Below, in pieces: positions 3,764 to 48,477 of a stretch of DNA of 49,788 nucleotides. The stretch's first letter is position 1. The number at the start of each line of letters is the position of its first letter. The stretch comes from Escherichia phage LL5: sequence record NC_047985.1; one strand, written 5' to 3'. Both the position numbers and the translations under genes were made by a program. The notes under the pieces were generated by a model. The model saw only the letters and a program-made list of their open reading frames with translations. It was not told the origin of the DNA and made no database searches.

Positions 3764-3973
3764 ATGATCCTGTCCGTTGCTTATGCTAACCCCAGGGGGT
3801 GCAATATATTTGGTTTTAAGGTTGGCGGCATGGTTAACGCCAAATACGACGACAGAGGGCGTTTAATGGTTGAAGCGCCAAAGACAAAAGTAATGATGCA
3901 CGTTAAGGAGATTGGCGGAAGGTTGGCGATCAGGTCAATGGCAGGGCAAACGCTTGTTACTTTCTGTAAATAG
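3764..3973 (+). CDS. hypothetical protein (69 aa)
   Basis: ORF with GGGGGG SD; stop TAG lies inside box copy 4. Confidence 0.5.
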   Translation: MILSVAYANPRGCNIFGFKVGGMVNAKYDDRGRLMVEAPKTKVMMHVKEIGGRLAIRSMAGQTLVTFCK

Positions 3974-3989
3974 CACTTTTTGCTAAAAC
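3968..3989 (+). promoter_or_regulatory. conserved box copy 4 (AAATAGCACTTTTTGCTAAAAC)
   Basis: followed by perfect 8-bp hairpin 3995-4020 with loop TTTGATAAAG; 76 nt upstream of ATG 4047. Confidence 0.7.
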
Positions 3990-5882: not shown

Positions 5883-6353
5883 ATGATCGCTAAAAATGAC
5901 CTTTGCAACATGTTAACGGCTGGTAATGATTATCAGGTTTTGAATAGCACAGAAGACCATTATTTTATTGAGTGTGATAATGGGGATCGCATGTGGATTA
6001 AAAAATGCTTTTTCGAAAGCGAGCACCTAAGCAATGCAAAGCGGATCGCAGATGAAGCAAGCGCATTAGCAGAGCGTGAACGAATTCGCGATATAGTAGC
6101 TGAGCAGGTTAGAAATTCTTGTTTGCCTGGTGGCGATATCTTCAATCACGTAAAAGGCGTTGGCGGCTCAGGCTGGCAGATTAAAAAGACTGGTGATGCA
6201 ATCATTCAAAGCATCAACTATGAGCCTAACGAATACGTCAAAGTGCTGGATCAGTTGCGCGAAATCATGCGAGTGCCTGAAGGTGAAAGCATTGTGACAC
6301 ATGCAAAGGTTTTAATGGCGTTGGCTGATGCGCTGATTTGTCTGCAAAAATAG
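5883..6353 (+). CDS. hypothetical protein (156 aa)
   Basis: AGGAG SD then ATG 5883; stop TAG inside box copy 6. Confidence 0.55.
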   Translation: MIAKNDLCNMLTAGNDYQVLNSTEDHYFIECDNGDRMWIKKCFFESEHLSNAKRIADEASALAERERIRDIVAEQVRNSCLPGGDIFNHVKGVGGSGWQIKKTGDAIIQSINYEPNEYVKVLDQLREIMRVPEGESIVTHAKVLMALADALICLQK

Positions 6354-6369
6354 CACTTTTTGTTAAAAC
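6348..6369 (+). promoter_or_regulatory. conserved box copy 6 (AAATAGCACTTTTTGTTAAAAC)
   Basis: followed by hairpin 6377-6398 (loop TTTGTTAAAG, one G.T pair); 76 nt upstream of ATG 6427. Confidence 0.7.
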
Positions 6370-12155: not shown

Positions 12156-12827
12156 ATGATGTTTCCCGATATGACAGAGAGCGACGTTGAAAAGGCGCTT
12201 AATGATCTGGCGGTTGATATCACTGAAAACAAAGCTGATGTAGAGGCGGCAATTGCCGCCTTTATGTTGCTGGTTTACGGGTTCGCCGTTAGTGCATACA
12301 AATACCACACTCGCCAATTTATCAGAATGGCAAAGCAAACAGGAAGCGCAAATAATCGATCCGTTATCCTTCTGATTGGTGGCGTTTACGGAAATATGAA
12401 TGAACGTTGGTTCAATTCAAAATACATAACCTGGCGATCACTTATTGAGGCATCCGTAAGGAAATTTGCGTATAATGTGCTTGATGATTGGGAAGTGCAA
12501 CAGCGTTTAAATGAGTTACGCGAGCAAGCAGAAACAAGAGCGCAGATCCGAAAGCGTCTAAGAAAATATAAGGCGTGGGCTAAAAATAGGGCGTCTGGTT
12601 TTGTTGGTTCGTGGTATTCCGTGTTAATGTATCAACGCGTGGTTGATACAGGAGTTACCCATTATATTTGGCGTACTCAGGAAGATAACATGGTTAGACC
12701 TGAACACGCTAAATTGGACATGAAACGGATCTCATTGGCAATAAAGCACATATTCCCAGGGCAGGAATATAATTGTCGCTGTTGGGCGCAACCGGATTGG
12801 GAAACAGAGCAAGAGGTATATTTATGA
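12156..12827 (+). CDS. head morphogenesis protein (Mu F / SPP1 gp7-like)
   Basis: C-terminal motif VRPEHAKLDMK...PGQEYNCRCWAQP. Confidence 0.8.
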   Translation: MMFPDMTESDVEKALNDLAVDITENKADVEAAIAAFMLLVYGFAVSAYKYHTRQFIRMAKQTGSANNRSVILLIGGVYGNMNERWFNSKYITWRSLIEASVRKFAYNVLDDWEVQQRLNELREQAETRAQIRKRLRKYKAWAKNRASGFVGSWYSVLMYQRVVDTGVTHYIWRTQEDNMVRPEHAKLDMKRISLAIKHIFPGQEYNCRCWAQPDWETEQEVYL

Positions 12828-13933
12828 AGAAGGTGCAACGTTTTGATAGTGTCAGAGTAAAGGCGCATTTTGATGAACACGGCTTTTTAGTAGATCGGCC
12901 TATTGTGGCGCGAATTGGTTTGCAGATTTATCAAACGCCATACGGCGAGCGCAGAGAATTCAGGCCAGCAAGTGAAGTGTTTAAAGCTGATAGCTTGGCG
13001 ACTTACGCAGGTAAACCAATCACAGTAGGTCACGTAACAGTAACGCCGGAAAATGCGCGTGATGTTGTAGTTGGTACTTGTTCAGGGGCTGGCATTCCAA
13101 ATGGGATCGGAGTTGAGGCGCCTTTGAATATTTACGCAAAGGATGCAATTGAAAGCGCGAAGAAAAAACAAACGGCTGAAATTAGCGTGGGCTATACGTC
13201 AATTGATATTGATAAGCCTGGTTATGGATCTAATGAAACTGGTGAATACATCTTTGAAGAAGATCTAAAAGAAGATGAGCAGCCGCCTGAAGGATGGGTA
13301 AAATTTGATGCACTGCAAACAAGCATTAGTGTTAACCATATTGCGTTAGTGTTTAAGGGTCGCGCTGGAATTGCAAAATTGAATCTTGATAGCGAGCAAG
13401 AATTCCCGTATGATATCGACGTTAAATTAAATAAAGAGGACGAGGTTATGACCGTTAAAATTAAACTTGATGGTGCTGTTGAATTTGACGTACCAAAAGA
13501 AGTTGCTACTTTTATCGAAACCGTGAAAGCAGACGCTACAGCGGCAAAAACTAAAGCCGATAGCCTGGAAGCAGAGCGCGATGCTCTACAGGCGAAAGTT
13601 GACGGCATTCCGGCGCAGATTGAAGAAGCCGTTAAAAAGGCAAAAGCTGACGCTGATGAACATGCCGCACTGGTCGCTACCGCTTCCGAAGTTGGCGTAA
13701 AATGCGACGGACTAACAGCCAAAGAAATTAAGATCGCATATGTGAAAGAGGTCATGGGTAATGACATTAGCGAAAAGGCTGATGCATATATTGATACCGC
13801 TTTTGATATCGCGAAAGAATCTGATAAAATGGCGGCTCAACGTATCGCATTAAAAGGCGATGCAGCAAAAAACAAACAGGATGCAGCGGAAACCATTCTT
13901 GATCCTTCCGCACGTCTGAATAAAGCTAAGTAA
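12824..13933 (+). CDS. putative head scaffolding protein
   Basis: 369 aa between head morphogenesis gene and capsid; Ala/Lys/Glu-rich predicted coiled-coil C-terminal half. Confidence 0.5.
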   Translation: MKKVQRFDSVRVKAHFDEHGFLVDRPIVARIGLQIYQTPYGERREFRPASEVFKADSLATYAGKPITVGHVTVTPENARDVVVGTCSGAGIPNGIGVEAPLNIYAKDAIESAKKKQTAEISVGYTSIDIDKPGYGSNETGEYIFEEDLKEDEQPPEGWVKFDALQTSISVNHIALVFKGRAGIAKLNLDSEQEFPYDIDVKLNKEDEVMTVKIKLDGAVEFDVPKEVATFIETVKADATAAKTKADSLEAERDALQAKVDGIPAQIEEAVKKAKADADEHAALVATASEVGVKCDGLTAKEIKIAYVKEVMGNDISEKADAYIDTAFDIAKESDKMAAQRIALKGDAAKNKQDAAETILDPSARLNKAK

Positions 13934-13945
13934 GGAGAAAATATT

Positions 13946-14425
13946 ATGGCTCAGATTTCAGCAAGTTATCATGTTGCAATGGCTCGCGCCTTGCCTGGTC
14001 AAGTTTCTGACACTTCCGCGTATAACATCGACGGCGCTTGTGTTCTTGATGGTGATGCCGGATCAACAATTTATGTTGGCGTTGGTGTTCAACATGGCGG
14101 AGTTAGCGCAAGCGGTGATAAATTAATTAAGGCTATGGCAGCGTCTGGTAATGCTTATGGTGTTGCTATTCGATCCAACTTCCAGACCACATCTAAAGAT
14201 GGTCGCATGGTTTATGAGGCTGGTAGCGGAATTAACGTAATGACTAAAGGTCGCGTTTGGATGTTATCTGTAGAATCAGAAGCGCCAGAATTCAAAACAC
14301 CTATCAAACTTGATAATTCAGGACAGGTTGATTTAACGTCTGGATCAATTGAAACTACTTGGATCGCAACTGGAGACTTTACGAAATTCCAAGATCTAAA
14401 ACTCGTTGAGGTTCAACTGGTATAA
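13946..14425 (+). CDS. structural protein, tandem paralog A (decoration-like, putative)
   Basis: shares YNIDG, GRVW and C-terminal ...VQL with next ORF. Confidence 0.5.
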   Translation: MAQISASYHVAMARALPGQVSDTSAYNIDGACVLDGDAGSTIYVGVGVQHGGVSASGDKLIKAMAASGNAYGVAIRSNFQTTSKDGRMVYEAGSGINVMTKGRVWMLSVESEAPEFKTPIKLDNSGQVDLTSGSIETTWIATGDFTKFQDLKLVEVQLV

Positions 14426-14430
14426 TAATA

Positions 14431-14455
14431 AGGCCGGATTATTCCGGCCTTTTAT
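14431..14455 (+). terminator. hairpin plus T-tract between paralogs
   Basis: perfect AGGCCGGATT/AATCCGGCCT palindrome then TTTTAT. Confidence 0.55.
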
Positions 14456-14468
14456 ATATGGTGGTTTT

Positions 14469-14909
14469 ATGTCTGATTACGGTTCTATAATAGGTATAGT
14501 TGAAAATGGGTGCTTGGTAGATTCAAGCCTTTATAATATAGATGGCTCGCCAGTTATGGATGTTTCAGCCGTGATAGGTAATGCCGTATGTGTTGATCGC
14601 ATATCTTGCGGTTACAAAATAATCAGCCACAATTTTAATGAAAACTCAAATCATTACGGAATCGTTACGCGTGATTATATGGATTTTTGCAAAGAATATT
14701 ACGACGCCGGAGATCCGGTCAACGTAATAACTCATGGTCGAATTTGGGTAATCACTCAGGACGAACATGATATTCCATCGTATAAAGATCCTGTTTTTGT
14801 TAAAGACAATGGCTCTATATCAACAAGTGGATTTCCTACCAGTTGGTTTTTTACTGGCGAGTACGTAAGATATTCACACGGGTATATTTTACTATCAGTC
14901 CAGTTGTAG
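14469..14909 (+). CDS. structural protein, tandem paralog B
   Basis: paralog of 13946-14425; GGTGG SD. Confidence 0.5.
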   Translation: MSDYGSIIGIVENGCLVDSSLYNIDGSPVMDVSAVIGNAVCVDRISCGYKIISHNFNENSNHYGIVTRDYMDFCKEYYDAGDPVNVITHGRIWVITQDEHDIPSYKDPVFVKDNGSISTSGFPTSWFFTGEYVRYSHGYILLSVQL

Positions 14910-14958
14910 CGTGCTAACACAAAAAACACTTGAACGTTTAACAAAAAATGCTATATTA

Positions 14959-14983
14959 AAGCCGTTATTATGACGGCTTTTCT
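14959..14983 (+). terminator. hairpin plus T-tract upstream of capsid gene
   Basis: GCCGT-TATTATG-ACGGC then TTTTCT. Confidence 0.45.
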
Positions 14984-14998
14984 ATGAGGGAAAATATT

Positions 14999-15973
14999 AT
15001 GTCTAAAGAAATGAAATATGATGAGTTTGAAGCAAACGTGATCGCCAACCATATGCAGTTACGCGGCGCTAAAAACGACGCATCTGATATGGGTATTTGG
15101 ACGGCTCAAGAGCTTCATAAAATTAAGGCTCAAGCCTATGAAAAAGAATATCCGGCAGGTTCCGCACTGCGTGTATTCCCTGTAACGTCCGAGCTTTCCG
15201 ATACTGATAAAACTTTTGAATACCAGACTTTCGACAAAGTAGGTCACGCAAAAATCATTGCTGATTACACTGATGATCTGCCAACTGTTGACGCGCTGAT
15301 GACTTCTGAATTTGGTAAAGTGTTCCGCCTGGGTAATGCGTTCCTGATTTCCATTGACGAAATCAAAGAAGGTCAACGCACTGGCAAGAGCCTTTCCACT
15401 CGCAAGGCAAACGCCGCACAGAATGCGCATGATCAGCTTGTAAACCACCTGGTTTTCAGAGGTTCTAAACCGCACAAAATTATCAGTGTGTTTGAACATC
15501 CGAACATCACAACTATCGACTCAGGCGGCTGGAATAACGCAACAGGTACGACTAAGAATCCTGAACGTGCACAGGATGAATTAGAGCAAGCGATTGAAAA
15601 AATCGAAACGCTGACCAACGGGCAGCACCGAGCTACTCACATTCTGATCCCGCCGTCAATGCGTAAAGTTCTGATGGTTCGTATGCCGGAAACAACCATG
15701 AGCTATCTTGATTATTTCAAGCAGCAGAATGGCGGTATCACTATCGAATCCATTTCCGAGCTTGAAGATATCGACGGCTCAGGCACTAAAGCTGCACTGG
15801 TTTACGAAAAAGATCCGATGAATATGAGCATCGAAATTCCAGAAGCGTTTAACATGCTGACCGCGCAGCCTAAAGACCTGCATTTCAAAGTACCTTGTAC
15901 TTCTAAGTGTACTGGTCTGACGATTTACCGTCCGTTGACGCTGGTTCTAATTAAAGGTCTTGTGAACGGCTAA
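14999..15973 (+). CDS. major capsid protein
   Basis: 324 aa, largest head-module ORF after scaffold; GAGGG SD; followed by strong terminator. Confidence 0.75.
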   Translation: MSKEMKYDEFEANVIANHMQLRGAKNDASDMGIWTAQELHKIKAQAYEKEYPAGSALRVFPVTSELSDTDKTFEYQTFDKVGHAKIIADYTDDLPTVDALMTSEFGKVFRLGNAFLISIDEIKEGQRTGKSLSTRKANAAQNAHDQLVNHLVFRGSKPHKIISVFEHPNITTIDSGGWNNATGTTKNPERAQDELEQAIEKIETLTNGQHRATHILIPPSMRKVLMVRMPETTMSYLDYFKQQNGGITIESISELEDIDGSGTKAALVYEKDPMNMSIEIPEAFNMLTAQPKDLHFKVPCTSKCTGLTIYRPLTLVLIKGLVNG

Positions 15974-15989
15974 TAATTAGATTAATATA

Positions 15990-16016
15990 GGGAACCGTTA
16001 AAAGGTTCCCTTTTTT
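15990..16016 (+). terminator. rho-independent terminator after capsid gene
   Basis: GGGAACC-GTTAAAA-GGTTCCC then TTTTTT. Confidence 0.7.
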
Positions 16017-16034
16017 ATTTCTGGAGAAAAACAA

Positions 16035-16307
16035 ATGGCTAAAGAAAAAGAAATTACACTTGTTAACACTGGCGTTGCACTGATTATTATTGATCGCGTT
16101 GACGTTATGCCAGGTAAAGAAATTACCGTTGCGGAAAGCGTGTTAGAGCGTCAAGGCACTAAAGCACTTATGGCAGAAGGTAAGCTAACAATCAAAGATA
16201 ACAGCGATCTCAATGCTGAAATCGTTGAAGCGTTTAAGAGCAAGCGCAAAAAAGATCCGAACGAAGGCAAGACAAAAAAAGAGCTTGAGGACGGCGGCGA
16301 GTATTAA
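16035..16307 (+). CDS. hypothetical head-associated protein (90 aa)
   Basis: ORF with GGAG SD between capsid and connector genes. Confidence 0.45.
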   Translation: MAKEKEITLVNTGVALIIIDRVDVMPGKEITVAESVLERQGTKALMAEGKLTIKDNSDLNAEIVEAFKSKRKKDPNEGKTKKELEDGGEY

Positions 16308-16313
16308 TTAGAA

Positions 16314-16340
16314 AAGGCGCTCATGTAGCGCCTTTTTTAT
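16314..16340 (+). terminator. hairpin plus T-tract
   Basis: GGCGC-TCATGTA-GCGCC then TTTTTT. Confidence 0.6.
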
Positions 16341-16353
16341 TATGGGGGTTATT

Positions 16354-16773
16354 ATGGTTGATGAAATTTATGGTGATATTGAGATCCTAGAGCAAATTTA
16401 TAAAATCGCGCCAGCGTTCAAAAAAGTTGATCCTGAATTGATTCAGGCATGGATTGAACTGGCTAAAGATTTCGTTTGCGAAAAGCATTTCAAAGACAAA
16501 TATTTCCGCGCTGTTGCTCTTTACACTTTGCACCTGATGACTCTTGACGGAGCTATGAAACAGGAAAGTGAGAGCGTAGAAAGCTACTCGCATCGTATAG
16601 CATCATTTTCCCTGACTGGTGAGTTTTCGCAAACGTTCAGCAAAGTTAGCGACGACACAAGCGGTAACACGTTGCGCCAAACTCCGTGGGGTAAAATGTA
16701 CGAAGTTCTCAACAAGAAAAAAGGCGGCGGATTTGGCCTTACAACTGCATTTCATCGGAGGTGCTCACGATGA
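16354..16773 (+). CDS. head-tail connector / head completion protein (putative)
   Basis: positional call; GGGGG SD. Confidence 0.4.
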
Positions 16774-17574: not shown

Positions 17575-18087
17575 ATTATCTGTTGCGGCAAGAATGGCGC
17601 TGGCTCAAGAATACGAAAGCGAATATATGATCGCTTATGAAAACGTTGAATTTACTCCACCAAAAGGCGGAGGCATTTGGCTTAAATATGACTACAAAGA
17701 AGCAGATACAATAATTCATGATCTGAAAAGGAAATGCATTAGCTATATTGGAATGGTTCAGATCGGAATTGAATTCCCGCCAGGCTCAGGAATTGATAAG
17801 GCTCGCAAGCTGGCAAAAAATATTGCTGATTTCTTTGAAGATGGTAAAATGATCTGAAAAGGAAATGCATTAGCTATATTGGAATGGTTCAGATCGGAAT
17901 TGAATTCCCGCCAGGCTCAGGAATTGATAAGGCTCGCAAGCTGGCAAAAAATATTGCTGATTTCTTTGAAGATGGTAAAATGCTTGCGAATGGTTATATT
18001 TCAGAAGGTGCAAAAGTGCATCCAGTTCAGAAATCAGAATCAGGCTGGTTTTATCCAGTACGTTTTTATGTTCGTTATGATGGTTAA
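17564..18087 (+). pseudogene. tail terminator-like gene split by a perfect 131-bp tandem duplication
   Basis: ORFs 17564-17857 and 17884-18087 share MVQIGIEFPPGSGIDKARKLAKNIADFFEDGKM; removing one copy restores a 130-aa ORF. Confidence 0.6.
17718..17982 (+). repeat. perfect 131-bp direct tandem duplication (2 copies plus shared ATG)
   Basis: 17718-17848 identical to 17849-17979 by eye. Confidence 0.9.
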
Positions 18088-48456: not shown

Positions 48457-48477
48457 TTTTAACAAAAAGTGCTATTT
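48457..48477 (-). promoter_or_regulatory. conserved box copy 14 (- strand AAATAGCACTTTTTGTTAAAA)
   Basis: TAG is stop of ORF 48472-48684; GCATAAT motif in downstream region. Confidence 0.7.

What the first reader, a model, noticed from the sequence alone, without database searches (positions are those of the whole stretch)
13946..14909. Tandem paralogous structural genes between scaffold and major capsid
The ORFs at 13946-14425 and 14469-14909 are diverged paralogs, sharing YNIDG, a central GRVW/GRIW block and a C-terminal …VQL, and are separated by a perfect palindromic hairpin plus T-tract. Their position suggests a capsid decoration or auxiliary head protein that has duplicated and diverged. 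Paired decoration proteins are uncommon, and the hairpin could set their relative expression.
Basis: seen in the sequence. Interest (0 to 1): 0.5.

Follow-up and report, generated by a model that had tools for sequence, protein, structure and literature searches.

The report
Paired capsid cement proteins, Tls-like phage
These two neighbouring genes are diverged copies of one capsid "cement" protein that glues the head of T1/Tls-type coliphages together, and both the gene pair and the hairpin between them have already been described, so the finding is real but ordinary.

Summary
ORF1 (13946-14425, 159 aa) and ORF2 (14469-14909, 146 aa) are true paralogs (31% identity, E 9e-19). A perfect 9-bp hairpin plus T-tract (14430-14451) lies between them.

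The window is a Tlsvirus phage (Drexlerviridae), 95-97% identical to phage Tls and its relatives. Both proteins belong to Pfam Phage_cement / XM1_gp53. ORF1 is the ortholog of T1 gp49 and ORF2 of the N-terminal beta-tulip domain of T1 gp48.

T1 cryo-EM (2025) already shows 80 gp49 homotrimers and 60 heterotrimers (2 gp49 + 1 gp48) on the T=7 head. The 2024 TLS re-annotation already names the two genes decoration proteins and predicts the hairpin as terminator T34.

What I add:
- ORF2 has no Ig domain, although GenBank labels it "IgG-domain-containing".
- The pair occurs in 48 of about 75 distinct T1-like loci, and the second copy evolves much faster than the first.
- A terminator hairpin follows the first copy in 76 of 78 loci, with 33 different sequences.
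- A conserved sigma70-type promoter precedes the capsid gene, so ORF2 sits in a low-transcription slot. This fits the roughly 6:1:7 stoichiometry but remains an inference.

Verdict: interpretation supported, already known, low interest.

The parts
13803..13830 (+). Sigma70-like site TTGATA-16-(TG)TAAAAT inside the 3' end of the protease/scaffold gene. It is a possible promoter for ORF1 (inferred, weak).
   Evidence: Scored 10/12 with TG. An equivalent site lies at the homologous position in most of the distinct T1-like upstream regions scanned; 4 showed no site. It overlaps conserved codons (F-D ... D-K-M), so its conservation may be due to the coding sequence.
13946..14425 (+). ORF1, the major cement/decoration protein (Tls HtjA/Gp34), ortholog of T1 gp49. 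159 aa, with a conserved 24-25-residue N-arm before YNIDG.
   Evidence: Pfam Phage_cement 86.3 bits; phrog_1989 E 4.5e-56; PDB 9kmg_a E 3.9e-45 over 1-158; 56% identity to T1 gp49; N-arm conserved across A copies.
14430..14461 (+). Intrinsic-terminator-like hairpin (9-bp stem, 4-nt loop) plus TTTTATATAT tail. This is terminator T34 of the TLS paper.
   Evidence: A hairpin plus T-tract sits at this position in 76 of 78 related loci, with 33 distinct sequences. A terminator is annotated at the same place in T1.
14460..14464 (+). Shine-Dalgarno-like GGTGG, 4 nt before the ORF2 start codon.
   Evidence: Read directly from the sequence.
14469..14909 (+). ORF2, the minor paralogous cement subunit (Tls HdeC/Gp35), homolog of the N-terminal beta-tulip domain of T1 gp48 / FCWL1 gp29. 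146 aa, no Ig domain.
   Evidence: Pfam XM1_gp53 87.7 bits and Phage_cement 51.6 bits, with no Big_2 hit. PDB 9kzj_H E 1.9e-13. AF2 pLDDT 88.8. Foldseek TM 0.81 to 9kmh_ak.
14930..14957 (+). Sigma70-type promoter-like site TTGAAC-16-(TG)cTATATT in front of the capsid gene. It contains the inverted 21-nt repeat DR7 (14937-14954).
   Evidence: A TTGnnn-16-TGnTATnAT site lies upstream of the capsid gene in essentially all related loci.
14958..14981 (+). Second hairpin (AAAGCCGT...ACGGCTTT), terminator T35 of the TLS paper. It starts 1 nt after the -10 hexamer.
   Evidence: A hairpin with varying stem sequences occupies the same place in other lineages.
14999..15973 (+). Major capsid protein (Pfam Major_capside, PF09950), which both cement proteins bind.
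   Evidence: Pfam 184.5 bits; phrog_264; start as annotated in Tls.

Best explanation
ORF1 and ORF2 are the two paralogous beta-tulip cement (decoration) proteins of a Tls-type T1-like siphophage.

ORF1 (the A copy) is the abundant subunit. It forms trimers at the threefold and quasi-threefold positions of the T=7 head, and its conserved N-terminal arm helps lock neighbouring capsomers together.

ORF2 (the B copy) is a minor, fast-evolving subunit. By homology with T1 gp48, it replaces one A subunit in a subset of trimers. In T1 there are 60 heterotrimers; by geometry these are the penton-adjacent sites, which is my inference. In Tls-type phages B lacks the Ig-like display domain that T1 gp48 carries. 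Its conserved job is therefore structural rather than adhesive (inferred).

Expression of B is probably kept low by gene layout. An intrinsic terminator follows ORF1. There is no room for a promoter before ORF2. A strong sigma70-type promoter restarts transcription just before the capsid gene. ORF2 would then be transcribed only by read-through, which matches the roughly 360:60:415 A:B:capsid stoichiometry of T1 (inferred, not measured).

Confidence is about 0.9 for the protein identities and about 0.5 for the terminator-tuned dosage.
For: Shown here:
- Paralogy, E 9e-19.
- Both proteins pass the Pfam cement-family thresholds.
- Sequence matches to the solved T1/FCWL1 capsid chains.
- A confident ORF2 model that superposes on FCWL1 gp29 and T1 gp48 with TM 0.80-0.81.
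- 95-97% nucleotide identity to Tlsvirus phages, where the genes are annotated htjA/hdeC decoration proteins.

From the literature:
- T1 has 80 gp49 homotrimers and 60 heterotrimers of 1 gp48 + 2 gp49. Both proteins are beta-tulip. The gp49 N-arm inserts into the shell and the gp48 N-arm does not.

Comparative results:
- The A+B pair is present in 48 distinct loci.
- A N-arms are conserved, while B N-termini are 3-4 residues shorter with their own motif MSDYG/MAYENL.
- A is more conserved than B in 96% of 946 locus pairs (62% vs 40% mean identity).
- B is under purifying selection within Tlsvirus (dN/dS 0.36, ORF intact in all).

Layout:
- A terminator hairpin follows A in 76 of 78 loci, with 33 different sequences.
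- It is predicted as T34 in TLS and annotated in T1.
- A conserved promoter-like site lies before the capsid gene.
Against: - There are no direct data for Tls-type virions. The TLS paper only suggests that an 18.5 kDa gel band 'may' be Gp34 and says nothing about Gp35.
- The location of B is not settled. The FCWL1 portal-vertex entry holds five gp29 chains, and gp29 is recorded in no other entry, including the FCWL1 capsid entry. I could not read that paper.
- Terminator efficiency is unmeasured. The Tls-type T-tract is short, and these phages carry about 20 such terminators, so this one is not special.
- The promoter before the capsid gene overlaps a repeated 21-nt element of unknown function, here in inverted orientation.
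- Penton adjacency of the heterotrimers is my geometric deduction from '4 homotrimers + 2 heterotrimers' in a figure legend. The authors do not state it.
Confidence: 0.8

Rival explanations
1. ORF2 is a vertex-restricted subunit present only around the portal vertex (about 5 copies per virion), not at all twelve vertices. It would help adapt the cement lattice to the portal or connector.
For: PDB 9kmh, the composite portal vertex of the T1-like phage FCWL1, holds exactly five chains of the 255-aa gp29, and that sequence is recorded in no other entry, including the FCWL1 capsid entry 9kmg. Very low copy number would also fit a gene placed behind a terminator.
Against: The T1 icosahedral reconstruction models gp48 in 60 heterotrimers. 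Chain counts in a deposit are weak evidence, and I could not read the FCWL1 paper.
Confidence: 0.15
2. ORF2 is a decaying or non-structural duplicate. Having lost the Ig domain, it no longer joins the capsid and persists only as a neutral or differently used gene.
For: It lacks the Big_2 domain of T1 gp48. It evolves much faster than ORF1 between genera. Its G+C is lower, 0.38 against 0.44-0.45. No proteomic evidence for it was found.
Against: The ORF is intact and 95-99% conserved in 42 Tlsvirus records. dN/dS is 0.36, equal to ORF1. All core motifs are kept, and the fold is confidently predicted and matches the capsid-bound chains. Short Ig-less B copies occur in several separate lineages.
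Confidence: 0.05
3. The hairpin does not tune the A:B ratio. It is simply one of the many operon-punctuating terminators or 3'-end stabilisers of T1-like late transcripts, and the protein ratio is set by translation or by assembly (excess B is just not incorporated).
For: About 20 similar terminators are spread through the genome, typically after abundant structural genes. The same hairpin follows the cement gene in lineages with no B copy at all. The ORF2 ribosome-binding site (GGTGG, 4-nt spacing) looks weaker than those of ORF1 and the capsid gene.
Against: In pair-bearing lineages B always lies exactly between this terminator and the capsid-gene promoter. No promoter fits in the 43-nt gap, so termination must lower B transcription to some degree.
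Confidence: 0.3

Closest known systems
Phage T1 cement proteins gp49 and gp48 (PDB 9kzj; Viruses 2025, PMC11945409)
   Same: Same gene order: protease, A, terminator, B, capsid gene. ORF1 is 56% identical to gp49 and has the same length. ORF2 aligns with residues 14-139 of gp48 and has the same beta-tulip fold.
   Different: T1 gp48 is 255 aa with a C-terminal Big_2 Ig-like domain. ORF2 is 146 aa with no such domain. ORF2 and the gp48 N-domain share only about 30% identity.
Phage TLS Gp34 (HtjA) and Gp35 (HdeC), with terminators T34/T35 and repeat DR7 (PMC11447400; GenBank AY308796)
   Same: Essentially the same genes: about 95% nucleotide identity and ORF2 98% amino-acid identity. The hairpin sequence is identical to T34.
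   Different: The TLS annotation calls Gp35 'IgG-domain-containing', a name carried over from its T1 homolog. No Ig domain is present. The paper does not discuss the paralogy or its stoichiometric meaning.
T1-like phage FCWL1 'cement protein II' and 'decoration protein gp29' (PDB 9kmg, 9kmh; Cai et al. 2025, Structure 33:663)
   Same: These are the best structural matches to the ORF2 model (TM 0.81, rmsd 2.3 A) and strong sequence matches to both ORFs.
   Different: gp29 is the long, Ig-bearing form. It is deposited only in the portal-vertex entry. I could not read the paper.
Pfam PF22758 Phage_cement (E217 gp24 / Pam3 gp6) and PF23982 (XM1 gp53 minor capsid protein)
   Same: Both ORFs pass both gathering thresholds. 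XM1 7kmx_a and Pam3 8hdt_G are the next structural matches.
   Different: Those are myophage proteins with 18-19% identity. I did not check whether those phages carry a paralogous pair.
Lambda gpD / TW1 gp56 beta-tulip trimeric decoration proteins
   Same: The same general role (trimers at threefold and quasi-threefold sites) and the same fold class according to the T1 paper. TW1 5wk1_K appears as a weak structural match.
   Different: No detectable sequence similarity. Each is a single gene forming homotrimers only.

Membership tests
Pfam PF22758 Phage_cement / PF23982 XM1_gp53_minor_capsid | Profile-HMM score above the curated gathering threshold (27 bits) over most of the domain | tested here: met
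   ORF1 scores 86.3 and 60.0 bits. ORF2 scores 51.6 and 87.7 bits. Coverage is near full length.
T1-type cement proteins (gp49/gp48) | Beta-tulip fold matching the capsid-bound solved chains | tested here: met
   The ORF2 AF2 model has pLDDT 88.8. Foldseek gives TM 0.80-0.81 to 9kmh_ak, 9kmg_b and 9kzj_H. ORF1 was not modelled, but it matches 9kmg_a at E 3.9e-45 over residues 1-158.
T1-type cement proteins (gp49/gp48) | Tandem genes located between the prohead protease and the major capsid gene | tested here: met
   The same layout is found in 48 distinct related loci.
T1-type cement proteins (gp49/gp48) | Assembly as A3 homotrimers and A2B heterotrimers on the T=7 capsid | not testable with these tools
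   Known only from T1 cryo-EM. It would need virion mass spectrometry or cryo-EM of a Tls-type phage.
T1 gp48 / FCWL1 gp29 subtype (Ig-bearing minor cement protein) | C-terminal Big_2 Ig-like display domain after the cement domain | tested here: not met
   ORF2 has no Big_2 hit at E <= 1. The cement domain fills all 146 residues. Long B copies in other lineages do hit Big_2. ORF2 is therefore a homolog of the gp48 N-domain, not a member of the Ig-bearing subtype.
Rho-independent (intrinsic) terminator | G+C-rich stem-loop immediately followed by a U-tract, placed in an intergenic region in the direction of transcription | tested here: met
   Pattern scan; fold z = -4.9; the position is conserved while the sequence turns over; predicted independently as T34.
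Rho-independent (intrinsic) terminator | Measured transcript 3' ends and partial read-through at the site | not testable with these tools
   No transcriptome of a Drexlerviridae phage was found.

The most novel reading that the evidence does not exclude
The second cement gene occupies a conserved 'transcriptional trough'. A terminator lies upstream, and a promoter lies downstream whose -10 element abuts a second terminator hairpin. That hairpin would stop only read-through RNA, because promoter-initiated RNA would start inside its 5' arm. This layout would hard-wire the roughly 6:1:7 ratio of cement A, cement B and capsid protein.

The same slot also behaves as a swappable cassette for capsid display modules across T1-like phages: plain B, B plus one or two Ig domains, collagen-like ORFs, or a GDSL esterase. 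The Ig-less Tls form would show that the ancestral role of B is vertex-specific cementing rather than adhesion.
Probability: 0.3. Interest if true: 0.4.

Novelty: already known. Interest (0 to 1): 0.15.

Why it matters
It matters little for discovery. The gene pair, the fold, the capsid positions (in T1) and the predicted terminator are all published.

The comparative picture does have practical value:
- It corrects misleading database labels. The 146-aa protein is called "IgG-domain-containing"; elsewhere the pair is labelled "amidase" and "peptidase", and another record labels ORF2 a "putative scaffolding protein".
- It points to the second cement gene as a naturally variable, low-copy capsid display site that could be used for phage engineering.
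- It gives a testable example of structural-protein stoichiometry encoded by terminator and promoter placement.

Tried and rejected
1. AlphaFold on a 3-sequence alignment gave pLDDT 38.6 and was discarded. A 39-sequence alignment was needed.
2. The word-indexed homolog search with ORF2 returned only its own 90% cluster. The exhaustive HMMER search found just 41 representatives. The B family is small and divergent.
3. I considered the lower G+C of ORF2 as a sign of horizontal origin or low expression. B is lower than A in only 37 of 48 loci, and not in T1-like phages, so it was rejected as general evidence.
4. A neighbour-joining tree of all cement domains shows the A copies as one tight clade. 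The B copies are long-branched and paraphyletic, with single-copy lineages interspersed. The number and timing of duplications cannot be read from it.
5. dN/dS within Tlsvirus is the same for A and B (0.36). It rests on few substitutions, so it only argues against pseudogenisation.
6. The Rfam scan of 13700-15200 gave nothing near threshold. The weak RsmZ hit covers only the terminator part of that model.
7. Literature searches for Drexlerviridae transcriptomes and Tlsvirus virion proteomics found nothing usable. The FCWL1 paper is not held.
8. The conserved promoter-like site upstream of ORF1 cannot be separated from coding constraint, so it is reported only as a lead.

Full report
**What is in the sequence**

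ORF1 is 13946-14425 (159 aa). ORF2 is 14469-14909 (146 aa). A longer TTG-initiated frame from 14406 runs through the hairpin and is not the annotated start.

BLASTP of the two products gives 31% identity and 53% positives over 143 residues, E = 9e-19. The shared motifs (YNIDG, GRVW/GRIW, terminal VQL) therefore belong to a full-length homology and are not chance.

Between the genes lies AAGGCCGGA-ttat-TCCGGCCTT (14430-14451), followed by TTATATAT. It is the top terminator-like site in an 8-20 kb scan. In context it folds at -22.8 kcal/mol, z = -4.9, and none of 200 shuffles folds as well. No Rfam family matches it.

**Where the window comes from**

The 12.8-16.4 kb segment is 95-97% identical to Tlsvirus phages of the Drexlerviridae: Salmonella phage Sephi301i, FSL SP-126, Escherichia phage Tls and others.

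In the Tls record the two genes are htjA ("capsid decoration protein") and hdeC ("IgG-domain-containing decoration protein"). They sit between the capsid maturation protease and the major capsid protein. In FSL SP-126 both are simply called HtjA.

Other records label them less reliably. In Sephi301i they are called "N-acetylmuramoyl-L-alanine amidase" and "peptidase", and Reinasaurus calls ORF2 a "putative scaffolding protein".

**What the proteins are**

Both ORFs pass the gathering thresholds of Pfam PF22758 (Phage_cement, E217 gp24/Pam3 gp6) and PF23982 (XM1 gp53 minor capsid protein). Both fall in phrog_1989.

Against solved structures:
- ORF1 matches a 158-aa "cement protein II / decoration protein" found in the T1 and FCWL1 capsid entries, at E 3.9e-45 over its full length.
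- ORF2 matches the 255-aa T1 gp48 ("BIG2 domain-containing protein", 9kzj_H) and FCWL1 gp29 (9kmh) at E about 1e-13. The match covers only their first ~140 residues.

An AlphaFold model of ORF2 built on 39 homologs is confident (pLDDT 88.8, all-beta, only residues 1-8 disordered). Its best structural matches are those same chains (TM 0.80-0.81). They are followed by XM1, Pam3, Borrelia phage BB1, the phi29 head-fibre base, HFTV1 and TW1 decoration proteins. A first model from a 3-sequence alignment was useless.

**What is already known about these proteins**

The T1 cryo-EM paper (PMC11945409) reports the following:
- The head has 415 copies of the capsid protein.
- It carries 80 gp49 homotrimers and 60 heterotrimers of one gp48 plus two gp49, at the threefold and quasi-threefold positions.
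- Both proteins have the beta-tulip fold.
- The extended N-arm of gp49 inserts to the inner surface and touches two capsid subunits, while gp48 only sits on the outside.
- The unresolved Ig-like C-terminus of gp48 projects outward.

These numbers give A:B:capsid = 360:60:415.

A figure legend in that paper shows a hexon and a penton with six trimers, four homo and two hetero. In a T=7 lattice each hexon touches two penton-hexon-hexon sites, one icosahedral threefold and three hexon-only quasi-threefolds. The heterotrimers should therefore be the penton-adjacent sites. This is my deduction, not a statement of the authors.

One discordant hint comes from the FCWL1 deposits. The gp29 sequence is recorded only in the portal-vertex entry, with five chains. 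I could not read that paper.

The TLS re-annotation paper (PMC11447400) proposes that an 18.5 kDa virion band may be Gp34 and says nothing further about Gp35. Its supplementary table lists the hairpin as predicted terminator T34, a second hairpin before the capsid gene as T35, and a repeat, DR7, between them. The T1 RefSeq record likewise annotates a terminator between gene 49 and gene 48.

**What I could add: the second copy lacks an Ig domain**

ORF2 has no Ig domain. There is no Big_2 hit at E <= 1, the cement domain fills the whole 146 residues, and long B copies from other lineages do hit Big_2. The "IgG-domain-containing" name was carried over from the T1 homolog (E 2e-12) and is wrong for this protein.

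**What I could add: distribution and evolution of the pair**

I compared 79 related IMG/VR loci together with T1 and Tls.
- 48 distinct loci carry the tandem pair.
- The first copy is always 157-170 aa.
- The second copy is either short (143-173 aa) or long (250-338 aa, with one or two Ig domains).
- About 27 loci have a single copy (I took these to be Rogunavirus- or Webervirus-like).
- An exhaustive HMMER search of 1.84 billion representatives with ORF2 finds only 41 relatives, split roughly evenly between short and long forms.
- tblastn with ORF2 finds 818 phage records and 1122 places. Identity falls from 95% or more within Tlsvirus straight to 46% or less outside it.

Across the same locus pairs, A copies average 62% identity and B copies 40%, and A is the more conserved in 96% of 946 comparisons.

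A copies keep a conserved 24-25-residue N-arm (MAQIxASY...MAxALPGQVSDTS). B copies have a different N-terminus, 3-4 residues shorter (MSDYG... or MAYENL...). This matches the structural difference reported for T1.

Within Tlsvirus both genes show dN/dS of about 0.36, so B is not a pseudogene. A distance tree could not resolve how many duplications occurred.

**What I could add: the regulatory layout**

A G+C-rich hairpin plus T-tract follows the first cement gene in 76 of 78 loci. There are 33 distinct sequences built on many different stem cores, for example GGCCGGA, GGCGCTC, GGGGACTATCC, GGCACTC, AGCCGTTC, GACCGC, GGCTCC, CCCGC and GGGGC. The position is conserved while the sequence turns over, which argues that the structure is selected. 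The hairpin is also present in single-copy lineages.

Upstream of the capsid gene every lineage has a sigma70-type site with an extended -10 element:
- TTGAAC/TTGCAC/TTGACG-16-TGcTATcAT in most lineages
- TTGACG-16-TGATATTCT in the loci I took to be Webervirus-like
- TTGCGT-16-TGTATAAT in those I took to be Rogunavirus-like

In the window this site is 14930-14957. A hairpin with varying stems follows it directly (14958-14981, T35).

The gap between the first terminator and ORF2 is only 43 nt and leaves no room for a promoter. ORF2 is therefore the one gene placed between a terminator and the next promoter. That arrangement would give it less mRNA than either neighbour, in line with its one-in-six to one-in-seven requirement. 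Nothing here measures termination, and these genomes carry about 20 such terminators, so I rate this step at about 0.5.

**Verdict**

The residual points of interest are modest: an Ig-less minor cement subunit, a mislabelled annotation, and a conserved gene layout that plausibly encodes capsid stoichiometry. Interest is low (0.15) and the finding is already known.

Noticed in passing
window 14937-14954 (and 12 other sites, e.g. 1340-1357, 3970-3987, 6350-6367, 48458-48475): The motif TTTAACAAAAARTGCTAT occurs 13 times with up to 3 mismatches, against 0.49 expected. It is the reverse complement of the 21-nt 'direct repeat' of unknown function in the TLS paper. In that paper's table the copy before the capsid gene (DR7) is listed on the strand opposite to the surrounding genes, and the 1340-1357 copy I checked lies on the strand opposite to its neighbouring genes, i.e. 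in the other orientation. In the DR7 orientation it forms the spacer and extended -10 of a sigma70-like promoter.
   Followed up: partly
window 14952-14981: The hairpin T35 begins 1 nt after the -10 hexamer TATATT. A transcript started about 7 nt downstream would lack most of the 5' arm. The hairpin could then stop only read-through RNA from ORF2 while sparing capsid-gene transcripts. Stem sequences differ between lineages while the hairpin persists.
   Followed up: partly
window 13803-13830: A promoter-like site, TTGATA-16-TGATAAAAT, lies inside the 3' end of the protease gene about 115 nt before ORF1. It recurs at the homologous position in most of the related upstream regions scanned. It overlaps conserved F-D...D-K-M codons, so function cannot be inferred.
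   Followed up: partly
window 17718-17979: A perfect 131-bp tandem duplication (17718-17848 = 17849-17979, 100% identity) lies inside the homolog of Tls gp41 (minor tail / tail terminator protein). It is absent where the aligned Tls locus reaches that point (the locus ends a few bases beyond). It is not a multiple of 3, so the gene is split into 97-aa and 67-aa ORFs. It is either an assembly artefact or a disruptive mutation.
   Followed up: partly
L071 3999-4110; L056 4072-4524; L074 4280-5323: In single-copy lineages the slot after the cement gene holds other modules. One locus has an in-frame TAG followed by about 33 residues of collagen-like G-X-Y repeats. Another has a separate ORF with a collagen repeat. 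A third has a GDSL lipase/esterase ORF.
   Followed up: partly
database records hit by window 12800-16400: Some annotation and host labels look unreliable. The 146-aa Tls Gp35 is called 'IgG-domain-containing'. Sephi301i calls the two cement genes 'N-acetylmuramoyl-L-alanine amidase' and 'peptidase'. A 'Streptococcus phage MBBL140' is 95.9% identical to this enterobacterial phage, and 14-20 'Campylobacter' phage records also match.
   Followed up: no
window 14469-14909: ORF2 has lower G+C (0.38) than ORF1 (0.44) and the capsid gene (0.45). The trend holds in 37 of 48 loci but not in T1-like phages.
   Followed up: yes
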